A program made the translations under genes and the position numbers. Positions 1-44,917 of a stretch of 45,293 nucleotides of DNA are shown piece by piece. How positions within the stretch are numbered: position 1 is the stretch's first letter; every line of letters starts with the position of its first letter. This stretch comes from a virus (taxonomy: Duplodnaviria; Heunggongvirae; Uroviricota; Caudoviricetes): the IMG/VR virus record IMGVR_UViG_2571042653_000011; one strand, given 5' to 3'. Under the pieces are notes generated by a model. It was not told where the DNA came from and did no database searches. It worked only from the letters and a program-made list of their open reading frames with translations.

Positions 1-573
1 ATGTTTTGCGAAGAAAAAGTAGCTCAAATGGCTGCATACCTACTTCTTAAGCGAGGTGGGCGCATGGCATATCTGAAATTGATGAAGCTGCTCTATCTGT
101 CTAACCGCAAGTCGATTTTGAAGCATGGCAGGATGATCGGCGAAGATAGCCTTTACTCTATGAAATTTGGTCCAGTCATGTCGAATACGCTGAACTTGAT
201 TCGTGGTAAGGCTGAAGGTATTGGTGACTACTGGTACAACCTGATAGAGACGAACGGGCATGATGTGTTGTTGCGTTCAGATCCGAGGGAAATGGATGCA
301 GACGAGGTCTTTGATGAGTTGAGCCGTGCAGATATCCGGATTTTAGATGAAATCTATTCTCTGTATGGGCATATGAACCGATTTGATCTCGCAAACATGA
401 CGCATTTAGAAAGCGTTTGTCCAGAGTGGCACAATCCTGGCAATTCTCGTAAGCCTATAGACCTGAAAGAAATGCTGATCAGTGAGGGTAAAAGCGAGGA
501 TGAGGCTAATCGTATAATTGGCAAAATGGAAGAATCTCAGAAACTTAAGGAATTTTCTTTGCAATTATCATGA
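1..573 (+). CDS. Panacea (DUF4065)-like domain protein, putative antitoxin-type component
   Basis: 190-aa ORF starting at the window edge; motifs KLMKLLYL and KFGPV resemble the DUF4065/Panacea (SocA/GepA-like) family as recalled; stop overlaps the next ORF's start (ATGA). May be 5'-truncated by the window. Confidence 0.5.
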   Translation: MFCEEKVAQMAAYLLLKRGGRMAYLKLMKLLYLSNRKSILKHGRMIGEDSLYSMKFGPVMSNTLNLIRGKAEGIGDYWYNLIETNGHDVLLRSDPREMDADEVFDELSRADIRILDEIYSLYGHMNRFDLANMTHLESVCPEWHNPGNSRKPIDLKEMLISEGKSEDEANRIIGKMEESQKLKEFSLQLS

Positions 574-989
574 CGGATTATCAGCCATACAGGAAAGGAA
601 CTGTGCTTGCCCCAACTGGGCCATGCAATCATCTTCATGTGATTTGTAATGATCCTGTTTATTACCCCGTTAACGATTGTTATTGTGTTTTAGTTGTTAA
701 TATTTCTAGTATCAAGGATGGTGTCCCCCACGATCCGTCTTGCGTCTTGAATTCTGGTGATCATCGCTTTATCAAGCATCCAAGTTATGTTGTTTACGCT
801 GAAGCTATAATTTGGCGAGTGGATAACATGGTTAGAAAGCAGCGATCGGGTGAGATTTCCGTTCATGATGATATGCCAGAAGCTACATTCAATAGAATTC
901 TGGACGGTTTTGATATATCTGATGAAGTTACGCCAAAGAACCTTAAATTTAAAAATAAATATTGCGTATCATCTATTGATGATGAGTAA
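570..989 (+). CDS. Hypothetical protein, translationally coupled partner of the Panacea-like gene (candidate toxin/effector)
   Basis: 139-aa ORF; ATG at 570 overlaps the upstream TGA; no Shine-Dalgarno of its own, consistent with coupling; AT-rich by eye; no family recognised. Confidence 0.45.
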   Translation: MTDYQPYRKGTVLAPTGPCNHLHVICNDPVYYPVNDCYCVLVVNISSIKDGVPHDPSCVLNSGDHRFIKHPSYVVYAEAIIWRVDNMVRKQRSGEISVHDDMPEATFNRILDGFDISDEVTPKNLKFKNKYCVSSIDDE

Positions 990-1028
990 ACAACAGGAAT
1001 TGTTTCGGTATAGCTTCTGGAGTTTTCT

Positions 1029-1202
1029 ATGGAAGATCAAAAAGCAACCAAGCCACAGGTTAAGTTCGACACAATGAAAGCATTCGCAGGTATGGGTGCT
1101 GCTGTTGAAGTTCTGATGAAGGCTGCTCCTAATGCGTTCACTCACGCTACTGTCTCTGGTAAAGAGCAGCAGGGTAAGCTTCGTCGTCGCAAAGCAGCAT
1201 GA
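1029..1202 (+). CDS. Small hypothetical protein (57 aa)
   Basis: ATG at 1029 preceded by GGAG; ends 20 nt before a strong intrinsic terminator; below the ORF-track length cutoff, translated by hand. Confidence 0.3.
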   Translation: MEDQKATKPQVKFDTMKAFAGMGAAVEVLMKAAPNAFTHATVSGKEQQGKLRRRKAA

Positions 1203-1223
1203 TCATAGCTGGTGCTTTTTGAA

Positions 1224-1248
1224 AACCCGCCTTTAGGCGGGTTTTTTC
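1224..1248. terminator. Bidirectional rho-independent terminator between convergent genes
   Basis: Hairpin ACCCGCC-TTTA-GGCGGGT followed by TTTTTT on the plus strand, with an A-run upstream giving a T-run on the minus strand. Confidence 0.7.
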
Positions 1249-42693: not shown

Positions 42694-43791
42694 TCAAGAG
42701 GTCTTATTTCTGCTCCTTTGGAGTTCTTCAAAACGATTATGTAAAGATTTTGGATACAGTTCGGTATATACCTGCCATAGCACGTTTAATGAACGATGCC
42801 CTGTAACCTGGGCGACTTCCTCAATACTAAAACCAGCCTCAAATAAGCGACTTGCCCCTTCTCTACGCAAATCATGGTATCGCAGATCTTTAATACCTAA
42901 TTTGCTTCTTACCCTCTGAAATCCTGCGGTAACAGAAGTGCTGTTGTATGGAAAAATGAATTCAGATTTTTTGGGTTGTCGTTGGACGATATCCCAGGCT
43001 TCCCCAAGCAAGGCCACTTTCATATGGTTACCTTCCTTTTTACGTGGATCTTTCCTGTCTCTTACTAGTATAGATTTTTGTTCCTGGTCGAGATCTTCCC
43101 ATCGTAACCGGCATACTTCTCCGATTCGCATACAGGACCACACAGAAAATTTGAGGATATCAACGAACGGAATTTTTGAGCATTTATGAGTAGATCGTTG
43201 TTGAAGGCCTTCAATGAGCATGTCTAGTTCATCAGATGCTGGTCTACGATTACGACGATTTGATTTACCAATTAAACCAAGTTTAAGTAGATATGGACGA
43301 GCGGCTTTTGCTGGGTTTGATGTGTAATTAATTCCGTATACAGGTTTGGCTGCATCCAGAACACTGCCAAGATAACTAACATCGTGGCTAACAGTAGCTG
43401 GACCTGCACCGGCGTTGTTTCTCAACCTGCAATGTTCTATTACGTCATTTTCTGTTAATTCAGATAGTCTGATCGCAGAAATGTCACTATCCATAAGTAG
43501 TTCCAGCACATATCTTTTAGTACGGCCTGCTTTACCTCCGGCATTTGGGTCATTTAAATATTTGCGTAGTAAGTCACGGACTGTAAGCCCGTCAACAGCA
43601 TTTGATGATGGAATGCCATGTAGATCTAATTCCATCACTTTCTGTGTGCCCCATGTTTTGGCATGAGCATGTTTAGGGAATGTTTTGCTTTCCCTGTAAG
43701 TGATAACCCCTTTTTCTTTGATAATCACATTACAGCGATAGCGTGGTGTGCCATCGGATTTTAGTCGTTTCTCTATGTTATAGTACGCCAT
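42694..43791 (-). CDS. Tyrosine-type integrase (dusA-associated)
   Basis: 365 aa; C-terminal catalytic region with R...H.LR...Y pattern (HDLRREGASR ... LWQVY); adjacent and divergent to dusA. Confidence 0.9.
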   Translation of the reverse strand: MAYYNIEKRLKSDGTPRYRCNVIIKEKGVITYRESKTFPKHAHAKTWGTQKVMELDLHGIPSSNAVDGLTVRDLLRKYLNDPNAGGKAGRTKRYVLELLMDSDISAIRLSELTENDVIEHCRLRNNAGAGPATVSHDVSYLGSVLDAAKPVYGINYTSNPAKAARPYLLKLGLIGKSNRRNRRPASDELDMLIEGLQQRSTHKCSKIPFVDILKFSVWSCMRIGEVCRLRWEDLDQEQKSILVRDRKDPRKKEGNHMKVALLGEAWDIVQRQPKKSEFIFPYNSTSVTAGFQRVRSKLGIKDLRYHDLRREGASRLFEAGFSIEEVAQVTGHRSLNVLWQVYTELYPKSLHNRFEELQRSRNKTS

Positions 43792-43846: not shown

Positions 43847-43879
43847 TAACGCGAGAAAAATAGCCTGAAATGTTCAAAA

Positions 43880-44917
43880 ATGCACGATAATCATGAAACA
43901 CAAAAAATTAATCAAACCAGCGTGATGCCTGAAAAAAATGGTGTTTACTGGAATTCTCGGTTTAGCATTGCTCCTATGCTCGACTGGACGGACAGACATT
44001 GCCGCTATTTCTTGCGTCTGCTTTCCCGCAATACGTTGCTGTATACCGAAATGGTGACCACAGGGGCGATTATTCACGGTAAAGGTGATTATCTGGCGTA
44101 CAGTGAAGAAGAACATCCGGTAGCATTGCAACTGGGCGGTAGCGATCCGGCGGCGCTGGCGCAGTGTGCAAAGCTGGCAGAAGCGCGCGGATATGATGAG
44201 ATCAACCTGAATGTCGGCTGCCCGTCTGACCGGGTGCAGAACGGCATGTTTGGGGCGTGTCTGATGGGTAATGCGCAGCTGGTTGCCGACTGCGTGAAAG
44301 CGATGCGCGATGTGGTGTCGATTCCGGTGACGGTGAAAACGCGTATTGGCATCGACGACCAGGACAGCTATGAATTTCTCTGCGATTTCATCAACACCGT
44401 TTCCGGCAAAGGCGAGTGTGAGATGTTCATCATCCATGCTCGTAAAGCCTGGCTTTCGGGGTTAAGCCCGAAAGAAAACCGTGAAATCCCGCCGCTCGAT
44501 TATCCGCGTGTGTATCAACTGAAGCGTGACTTTCCGCATCTGACAATGTCGATTAACGGTGGTATCAAGTCGCTGGAAGAGGCTAAAGCGCATTTGCAAC
44601 ATATGGATGGCGTGATGGTCGGGCGCGAAGCGTATCAAAATCCGGGTATTCTGGCGGCGGTAGACCGAGAGATCTTTGGTTCCTCGGATACCGATGCCGA
44701 TCCGGTGGCGGTAGTGCGCGCCATGTATCCGTACATTGAGCGTGAACTCAGCCAGGGGACGTATCTTGGCCATATTACCCGGCATATGTTGGGCTTGTTC
44801 CAGGGTATTCCTGGCGCGCGGCAGTGGCGGCGTTATTTAAGTGAAAATGCCCATAAAGCGGGTGCAGACATTAATGTGCTGGAACACGCGCTCAAACTGG
44901 TGGCGGATAAGCGTTAA
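43880..44917 (+). CDS. dusA: tRNA-dihydrouridine synthase A
   Basis: 345 aa; flavin-dependent Dus TIM-barrel features with catalytic Cys (NLNVGCPS); the first ~30 codons are likely supplied by the prophage end. Confidence 0.9.

What the first reader, a model, noticed from the sequence alone, without database searches (positions are those of the whole stretch)
1..989. Panacea (DUF4065)-like gene translationally coupled to an unrecognised 139-aa partner: candidate toxin-antitoxin or abortive-infection module
The first ORF carries DUF4065/Panacea-type motifs (KLMKLLYL, KFGPV). Panacea domains are known as promiscuous antitoxin domains that pair with many unrelated toxins. The downstream ORF overlaps it by ATGA, has no SD of its own, looks lower in GC than the prophage body, and matches no family I recognise. 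Its position between the presumed attL and the excision gene is a typical moron/defence slot. The partner could be a new toxin or effector.
Basis: partly seen in the sequence, partly recalled or inferred. Interest (0 to 1): 0.75.

Follow-up and report, generated by a model that had tools for sequence, protein, structure and literature searches.

The report
Prophage PanA–PanT toxin-antitoxin pair
The two overlapping genes are a member of an already described family of toxin-antitoxin pairs (a Panacea antitoxin plus a MazF-shaped toxin), sitting in a swappable cargo slot at the end of an E. coli prophage, so the partner is not a new kind of toxin.

Summary
ORF1 (1-573) is a Panacea/DUF4065 protein (Pfam PF13274, 67.9 bits). 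ORF2 (570-989) starts inside an ATGA overlap, has no Shine-Dalgarno sequence of its own, and has 38.6% GC against 50.5% for the window. The pair lies about 250 bp inside attL of a dusA-integrated lambdoid prophage.

In all 26 genome loci that could be evaluated, a PanA gene sits directly upstream of the ORF2 homologue, and nothing else is conserved. The pair forms a 1.2-kb cassette with its own upstream region. Related prophages carry other cargo in the same slot, including an unrelated Panacea pair.

Toxicity of this E. coli copy and any role in phage defence are inferred, not shown.

Verdict: a new member of a known kind, of low to moderate interest.

The parts
1..573 (+). panA: a 190-aa Panacea-domain antitoxin. 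It has the canonical core plus a C-terminal extension with a long helix at residues 166-189.
   Evidence: Pfam PF13274, E 1.8e-18. RefSeq WP_000458583.1, 'Panacea domain-containing protein'. AF2 model with pLDDT 92. 204 homologues, all carrying PF13274 among the 120 listed and about 185-190 aa long. pN/pS about 0.1.
570..989 (+). panT: a 139-aa member of PanT cluster T6 with the MazF/Kid/PemK fold; the presumed toxin.
570..573 (+). ATGA start/stop overlap, giving translational coupling of panT to panA.
   Evidence: Read directly from the sequence. ATGA recurs in 14 other loci, and one more has a TAATG overlap.
1..1015 (+). The in-window part of the 1,208-bp variable cargo cassette (window -192 to 1015). 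Its upstream 192 bp, which hold a promoter-like site, lie outside the window.
   Evidence: Homology to O157:H7 prophages and to phage mEp460 stops at window -193 and resumes at 1016. A promoter-like TTGACC-17-TAAACT lies at L001 5846-5874, which is window -154 to -126.
1029..1202 (+). ORF3, 57 aa (phrog_2741). It is probably co-transcribed with the pair but belongs to the phage backbone, not to the module.
   Evidence: It has its own GGAG 6 nt upstream. It is present without PanAT in mEp460 and O157:H7 prophages. It is absent from all 29 other PanAT loci.
1221..1246 (.). Bidirectional intrinsic terminator. It ends the panA-panT-ORF3 unit and separates it from the convergent xis operon.
   Evidence: 11-bp stem with 6 GC pairs and a T run. 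The only Rfam matches in the region are sub-threshold hits on this hairpin.

Best explanation
This is a type II PanA-PanT toxin-antitoxin module of the T6 class. It is carried as a self-contained 1.2-kb cargo cassette at the attL-proximal end of a dusA-integrated lambdoid E. coli prophage.

panA and panT are transcribed rightwards from the cassette's own upstream region, against the phage early-left operon. The transcript ends at the terminator at 1221-1246. panT has no ribosome-binding site, so it is translated by ribosomes that terminate on panA (the ATGA overlap). This ties toxin synthesis to antitoxin synthesis.

PanT is a MazF/Kid-fold protein. By analogy with the tested P. moraviensis T6 homologue, it arrests growth by blocking translation, most likely as an endoribonuclease. 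PanA binds it directly and keeps it inactive.

- **Shown here:** domain identity, fold, family membership, strict two-gene synteny, coupling, purifying selection, and cassette boundaries.
- **Taken from the paper, for a homologue only:** toxicity, neutralisation, complex formation and translation arrest.
- **Inferred:** RNase chemistry, use of the PanA C-terminal helix for neutralisation, and a biological role in excluding other phages and/or stabilising the prophage.
For: - **ORF1 is Panacea.** PF13274 at 67.9 bits.
- **ORF2 belongs to T6.** P0106 is WP_101821906.1, P0130 is WP_012553438.1 and P0174 is WP_025672779.1. All three are listed as T6 toxins in Dataset S1 of PMC8832971, and the intergenic spacings I measured match those listed.
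- **The family has a tested member.** The T6 representative from P. moraviensis is reported as toxic, neutralised, pulled down with its PanA, and a specific inhibitor of protein synthesis.
- **A Pseudomonas-type pair links the two.** Its PanA begins MIFSEQKVAQ, the ten residues that paper added to P. moraviensis PanA. It has a 1-nt overlap, and its PanT is 40% identical to ORF2 (E 1e-28).
- **Synteny is strict.** PanA lies directly upstream in 26 of 26 evaluable loci. Only these two genes are shared across loci.
- **Both genes are under purifying selection.** pN/pS is about 0.1.
- **It is a cassette.** Boundaries and alternative cargo in the same slot are shown.
- **It recurs at phage cargo positions.** The same pair sits next to the integrase in Yersinia phage YeP1. 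In the P2-like Pseudomonas phage Sirocco it sits at the left genome end next to the portal gene. That appears to match the cos-proximal defence hotspot described for E. coli P2-like phages.
Against: - No experiment exists for this E. coli pair.
- In the same paper, two PanA-associated 'mRNase' candidates from an E. coli prophage and a Salmonella phage (cluster T1) were not toxic. Toxicity therefore cannot be assumed from architecture alone.
- No sequence-level link to MazF/PemK could be reproduced. There was no PF02452 hit at E<=1, no MazF among PDB profile hits, and hhalign to MazF gave nothing.
- The family's invariant polar residues are H21, H23, D55, C58, H65, S72 and Y76. I could not map them onto the Arg/Thr catalytic pair that I recall for MazF, so the chemistry may differ.
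- PanA has no DNA-binding domain, and no inverted repeat lies upstream. Classical autoregulation is therefore not evident.
- There is no PADLOC hit.
Confidence: 0.8

Rival explanations
1. This is a sensor-effector abortive-infection system rather than a simple addiction module. PanA stays bound to PanT and acts as the sensor of an infecting phage's product. Sensing releases or allosterically activates the MazF-fold effector. This overlaps with the best explanation and differs only in what PanA does.
For: - The authors of PMC10440598 favour a sensory role for Panacea.
- The cassette occupies a swappable att-proximal slot that also hosts an unrelated Panacea pair.
- Homologous pairs lie next to the integrase in phage YeP1 and at the cos-proximal end of a P2-like phage.
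- The cassette has its own upstream region, so it could be expressed in the lysogen.
Against: - No phage-challenge data exist for any T6 pair in the papers read.
- There is no PADLOC model hit.
- Hotspot location is guilt by association only.
Confidence: 0.35
2. The pair is non-toxic or domesticated in E. coli. ORF2 is a MazF-fold protein without growth-inhibiting activity, and the pair has another phage-related role.
For: - T1 'mRNase' candidates next to PanA from E. coli MOD1 and Salmonella phage Emek were not toxic when tested.
- The canonical MazF catalytic residues could not be recognised.
Against: - ORF2 is not in T1; tblastn found no match in phage Emek.
- ORF2 is in T6, whose tested member is toxic.
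- There is strong purifying selection and strict pairing with PanA across three proteobacterial classes.
Confidence: 0.2
3. ORF2 acts like CcdB, poisoning DNA gyrase, rather than like MazF, cleaving RNA. The two share the same fold.
Against: - The Foldseek top 50 contain no CcdB.
- The tested T6 homologue inhibits protein synthesis specifically, not replication.
Confidence: 0.05
4. ORF2 is a phage packaging or structural protein. Some T6 members are labelled 'terminase' in RefSeq.
For: Three Pasteurellaceae T6 entries carry the product name 'terminase' in Dataset S1.
Against: - ORF2 lies at the opposite end of the prophage from any packaging genes.
- It has no terminase Pfam hit.
- It has the MazF fold.
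- It also occurs outside prophages; the validated member is flagged 'NotPhage'.
Confidence: 0.02

Closest known systems
PanAT of Pseudomonas moraviensis (PanT cluster T6; WP_083201923.1 / WP_083354365.1), Kurata et al. 2022, PMC8832971
   Same: - It is the same two-gene family, with a roughly 185-190-aa PanA that has no N-terminal domain.
- The partner is a roughly 130-140-aa MazF-like PanT.
- The antitoxin gene comes first, and the genes overlap by 1-4 nt.
- A Pseudomonas-type pair with the same PanA N-terminus is 43% (PanA) and 40% (PanT) identical to the window's proteins.
   Different: - The E. coli copy is prophage-borne, whereas the validated one is flagged 'NotPhage'.
- It has not been tested.
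- It keeps C26 and H70, which the Pseudomonas-type sequence lacks.
MazEF / Kis-Kid (PemIK) type II toxin-antitoxin systems
   Same: - The gene order is antitoxin then toxin, with overlapping genes.
- The tested homologue inhibits translation.
   Different: - No sequence similarity is detectable with HMMER or hhalign.
- The antitoxin is a globular Panacea protein, not an AbrB- or SpoVT-type MazE.
- ORF2 has about 30 extra C-terminal residues that form two helices (104-116 and 122-131).
- The conserved polar residues are His/Asp/Cys/Ser/Tyr.
PanAT of E. coli STEC O31 (membrane-depolarising PanT, cluster T3), Kurata et al. 2022
   Same: It is an E. coli PanA-based pair.
   Different: The toxin is unrelated: a small membrane protein. 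In a sister prophage (NZ_OZ464527), a Panacea pair with a membrane-like 182-aa partner occupies the very slot studied here. I could not establish whether that pair is T3.
SocAB of Caulobacter crescentus (the founding DUF4065 protein)
   Same: SocA carries the Panacea domain.
   Different: From my own knowledge, SocA acts as a ClpXP adaptor that delivers SocB for degradation, and SocB blocks the replication clamp. Nothing here suggests that mechanism, and the partner protein is unrelated.

Membership tests
PanA / Panacea antitoxins (Pfam PF13274, DUF4065) | Match to the Panacea profile above the curated threshold | tested here: met
   67.9 bits against a cut-off of 25.7, E 1.8e-18, covering residues 27-137. 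All 120 listed homologues carry PF13274.
PanA / Panacea antitoxins (Pfam PF13274, DUF4065) | Conserved two-gene, co-oriented unit with a small partner gene while the flanks vary (the FlaGs-type TA criterion) | tested here: met
   PanA is directly upstream in 26 of 26 evaluable loci. Only PanA and PanT are shared by all loci.
PanA / Panacea antitoxins (Pfam PF13274, DUF4065) | Neutralises the partner's toxicity and binds it | not testable with these tools
   This is shown only for the P. moraviensis homologue in PMC8832971.
PanT cluster T6 (Kurata et al. 2022) | Sequence homology to listed T6 members | tested here: met
   WP_101821906.1 (profile E 2.5e-52) and WP_012553438.1 (profile E 1e-36) are hits to the ORF2 family profile. 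WP_025672779.1 (tblastn E 2e-35) is a hit from the genome-locus search. All three were identified by accession and are listed as T6.
PanT cluster T6 (Kurata et al. 2022) | Encoded immediately downstream of PanA, with spacing as tabulated | tested here: met
   The spacings I measured match Dataset S1 for all four shared organisms: -4, -1, +1 and +15 nt for Pantoea septica, Chimaeribacter 2016-Iso4, Salinivibrio socompensis and G. diazotrophicus.
PanT cluster T6 (Kurata et al. 2022) | Growth inhibition through translation arrest | not testable with these tools
   Reported for the P. moraviensis member only.
MazF/PemK/Kid endoribonucleases (Pfam PF02452) | SH3-like barrel fold of MazF/Kid | tested here: met
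   [not shown]
MazF/PemK/Kid endoribonucleases (Pfam PF02452) | Match to the PemK_toxin sequence profile | tested here: not met
   No PF02452 hit at E<=1. No MazF in a PDB profile search at E<=10. hhalign probability below 1% (the MazF side of that comparison was shallow). The published HHpred assignment for T6 could not be reproduced with these tools.
MazF/PemK/Kid endoribonucleases (Pfam PF02452) | Catalytic Arg/Thr pair (R29/T52 in E. coli MazF, recalled from memory) | tested here: inconclusive
   No residue-level structural alignment was available. The family invariants are H21, H23, D55, C58, H65, S72 and Y76, and an [ST][ST] pair at 46-47 is conserved.
MazF/PemK/Kid endoribonucleases (Pfam PF02452) | Sequence-specific RNA cleavage | not testable with these tools
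   Needs an in vitro or in vivo cleavage assay.
Catalogued anti-phage defence systems (PADLOC-DB v2) | Match to a defence-system protein model | tested here: not met
   No hits for ORF1, ORF2 or ORF3 at E<=1.

The most novel reading that the evidence does not exclude
T6 PanT proteins may be a catalytically distinct branch of the MazF fold. They would use an invariant His/Asp/Cys cluster (H21, H23, D55, C58, H65), either as a new active site or as a metal site, instead of the MazF Arg/Thr pair.

In addition, the attL-proximal slot of dusA-integrating lambdoid prophages may be a dedicated hotspot. Different Panacea-based modules would be exchanged there as anti-phage immunity cassettes, with PanA acting as the phage sensor.
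Probability: 0.25. Interest if true: 0.5.

Novelty: new member of a known kind. Interest (0 to 1): 0.25.

Why it matters
The pair is carried by about 4% of complete E. coli genomes: 205 of 5,426 hold at least 80% of the 1.3-kb region. These include an O25b:H4 strain and avian pathogenic isolates.

It is an untested enterobacterial copy of a toxin family that has been validated only in Pseudomonas. It would be a convenient native-host model for two open questions. The first is how a Panacea antitoxin holds a MazF-fold toxin. The second is whether PanAT modules defend lysogens against other phages or stabilise the prophage.

It also corrects an annotation. RefSeq starts ORF2 33 nt too late and calls it hypothetical. 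None of this changes the current picture of Panacea systems.

Tried and rejected
- **Sequence-level link of ORF2 to MazF.** Pfam at E<=1, a PDB profile search at E<=10, hhalign of the family profile against E. coli MazF, and hhalign against a 5-sequence MazF alignment with a 180-sequence T6 alignment were all negative. Only the fold links them.
- **ORF2 as a T1 'mRNase' like the non-toxic E. coli and Salmonella phage candidates.** Rejected, because tblastn found no match in phage Emek.
- **ORF3 as a third component.** Rejected. It is absent from all other PanAT loci and present without PanAT in mEp460 and O157:H7 prophages.
- **GTG 603 (the PGAP start).** Rejected in favour of ATG 570 on N-terminal conservation.
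- **RNA elements.** Only sub-threshold Rfam hits on the terminator hairpin.
- **Operator-like inverted repeats upstream of panA.** None found.
- **Solved structural relative of PanA.** None is significant; the best Foldseek E is 0.12, and there is no sequence hit in the PDB.
- **Literature.** The window's accessions do not appear in the searched literature, in the stored supplements of PMC8832971, or in the NetFlax paper's stored supplements.

Full report
**What is in the sequence**

Window bases 1-989 hold two same-strand ORFs. ORF1 runs 1-573 (190 aa) and ORF2 runs 570-989 (139 aa). The ORF2 ATG (570-572) overlaps the ORF1 TGA (571-573), giving ATGA. No Shine-Dalgarno-like run lies within 5-12 nt of that ATG; the nearest, AAGGAA at 547-552, is 17 nt away. 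GC content is 43.1% for ORF1 and 38.6% for ORF2, against 50.5% for the window.

The window is 100% identical to several E. coli chromosomes. At least 80% of the first 1.3 kb is present in 205 of 5,426 complete E. coli genomes.

In the identical record NZ_CP029741, a 35-codon dusA 5' fragment lies upstream. ORF1 is annotated 'Panacea domain-containing protein' (WP_000458583.1). ORF2 is annotated 'hypothetical protein', but from GTG 603 (WP_014640052.1).

The dusA 5' duplication is 107 bp long and 82% identical to window 43877-43983. It ends 254 bp before window base 1. Integrase, an intact dusA and pspG are at the right end of the window. The pair therefore sits just inside attL of a dusA-integrated lambdoid prophage. 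It is followed by a 57-aa ORF3, a bidirectional terminator (1221-1246) and the convergent PrtN-type excisionase.

**ORF1**

ORF1 matches Pfam SocA_Panacea PF13274 (E 1.8e-18, 67.9 bits against a cut-off of 25.7). Its start is supported by a GAGG 8 nt upstream and by an N-terminus conserved in homologues. A search found 204 homologues, and all 120 listed are about 185-190 aa and carry PF13274.

The AF2 model (pLDDT 92) shows the helical Panacea core. Beyond the Pfam domain there is a conserved loop (T134, H135, E142, W143, P146, I153), then a short helix and a long C-terminal helix (166-189). No solved structure resembles it significantly.

**ORF2**

ORF2 has no Pfam or PADLOC hit. It belongs to phrog_19071, of unknown function.

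Its 62 close homologues are all unannotated proteins of 130-150 aa from Enterobacterales, Vibrio and Shewanella. A profile search found 271.

Residues 1-11 are conserved, and the ATGA junction recurs in 14 other loci. The ATG at 570, not the PGAP GTG at 603, is therefore the real start.

The link is by fold only. HMMER and hhalign find no MazF similarity.

**The family is already described**

Kurata et al. 2022 (PMC8832971) catalogued the partners of Panacea antitoxins. Their Dataset S1 lists a cluster T6, annotated by HHpred as 'EndoA/PemK/MazF-family RNAses'.

Three of the ORF2 homologues I retrieved are exactly T6 entries: WP_101821906.1 (Chimaeribacter 2016-Iso4), WP_012553438.1 (Gluconacetobacter diazotrophicus) and WP_025672779.1 (Salinivibrio socompensis). 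The PanA-PanT spacings I measured in four shared organisms (-4, -1, +1 and +15 nt) equal those tabulated.

The T6 representative from P. moraviensis is reported to be toxic. It is neutralised by its PanA, is co-purified with it, and specifically inhibits protein synthesis.

A Pseudomonas-type pair supports the link. Its PanA begins with the ten residues MIFSEQKVAQ that the paper quotes, and the genes overlap by 1 nt. It is 43% (PanA) and 40% (PanT, E 1e-28) identical to the window's proteins.

**Synteny and selection**

A genome scan gave 29 loci across gamma-, beta- and alphaproteobacteria. In all 26 with upstream sequence available, a PanA homologue ends at or within 28 nt of the PanT start on the same strand. 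An all-against-all comparison of flanking ORFs found no other gene shared by more than five loci, and those few were antisense artefacts within the pair itself. ORF3 occurs only in the E. coli locus. pN/pS is about 0.1 for both genes.

**It is a cassette in a variable slot**

Homology between this prophage and the O157:H7 prophages or phage mEp460 stops at window -193 and resumes at 1016. The swapped segment is therefore 1,208 bp: 192 bp of private upstream sequence, which contains a weak promoter-like site, plus panA and panT.

In O157:H7 and mEp460, the slot holds an unrelated 177-aa protein of unknown function. In strain ECL27977, it holds a different Panacea protein (157 aa, 20% identical to ORF1) with a 182-aa partner that gives only weak, membrane-protein-like Pfam hits.

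T6-type pairs also lie next to the integrase in Yersinia phage YeP1. In the P2-like Pseudomonas phage Sirocco, one lies between the left genome end and the portal gene. This appears to match the cos-proximal defence hotspot reported for E. coli P2-like phages (PMC9122126).

**Mechanism**

- **Shown here.** This is a Panacea antitoxin gene translationally coupled to a MazF-fold T6 PanT gene. The two are inherited as a unit under purifying selection, in an autonomous cassette.
- **From the literature, for a homologue.** The toxin arrests translation and is neutralised by direct binding.
- **Inferred.** RNase chemistry is inferred, not shown. The invariant polar residues are H21, H23, D55, C58, H65, S72 and Y76, and I could not map them onto MazF's catalytic pair. 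PanA's extra C-terminal helix may act as the neutralising element, by analogy with the Phd-C extension described in PMC10440598. A role in phage exclusion and/or prophage addiction is also inferred.
- **Cautions.** Two PanA-linked candidates of another cluster (T1), from E. coli and a Salmonella phage, were not toxic. No T6 pair has been challenged with phages in the papers read.

**Verdict**

This is an untested E. coli prophage member of a published PanAT class: a new member of a known kind, of low to moderate interest.

Noticed in passing
L038 (NZ_OZ464527.1) 1401-2445; equivalent to the window -192 to 1280 slot: In a sister dusA prophage, the same slot carries an unrelated Panacea protein (157 aa, PF13274 E 6e-18, 20% identical to ORF1). 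Its partner is a 182-aa protein with only weak membrane-protein-like Pfam hits. There is no ORF3. The slot therefore exchanges different Panacea modules.
   Followed up: partly
L036/L037 1784-2317 (O157:H7 prophages); L031 2284-2817 (phage mEp460 gp23): Here the same slot holds a 177-aa protein with no Pfam hit (WP_000956557.1), followed by the ORF3 homologue. Its function is unknown.
   Followed up: partly
window 570-603: RefSeq/PGAP starts ORF2 at GTG 603 (128 aa). Conservation of residues 1-11 and of the ATGA junction shows the true start is ATG 570 (139 aa). In Pseudomonas phage Sirocco, the PanT homologue (L040 1501-1863) is not annotated at all, and a short minus-strand ORF is called there instead.
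   Followed up: yes
window 1029-1202: ORF3 (57 aa, phrog_2741, E 8e-36) has its own GGAG. It travels with the PrtN-type excisionase rather than with PanAT. Its function is unknown.
   Followed up: partly
window 43877-43983 and L001 5640-5746: There is a 107-bp duplication of the dusA 5' end, 82% identical, at the two prophage ends. The phage supplies a replacement dusA 5' end beside its integrase (42694-43791, minus strand). The original host fragment remains at attL.
   Followed up: yes
Dataset S1 of PMC8832971, T6 rows for Histophilus, Haemophilus and Pasteurella: Three T6 PanT homologues carry the RefSeq product name 'terminase'. Given the MazF fold and the PanA pairing, this looks like a misannotation.
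   Followed up: no
L017 (Brenneria izbisi) and L030 (Bathymodiolus symbiont): Both loci hold truncated or degraded copies of PanA and/or PanT. These appear to be decayed modules.
   Followed up: no
protein collection cluster that holds ORF1: The 90%-identity cluster returned for ORF1 also lists the 128-aa ORF2 protein and a 232-aa N-terminally extended 'DUF4065' annotation (E. coli O121:H19). The mixing of two unrelated proteins in one cluster is unexplained. It may be an artefact of a fused or mis-called gene model.
   Followed up: no
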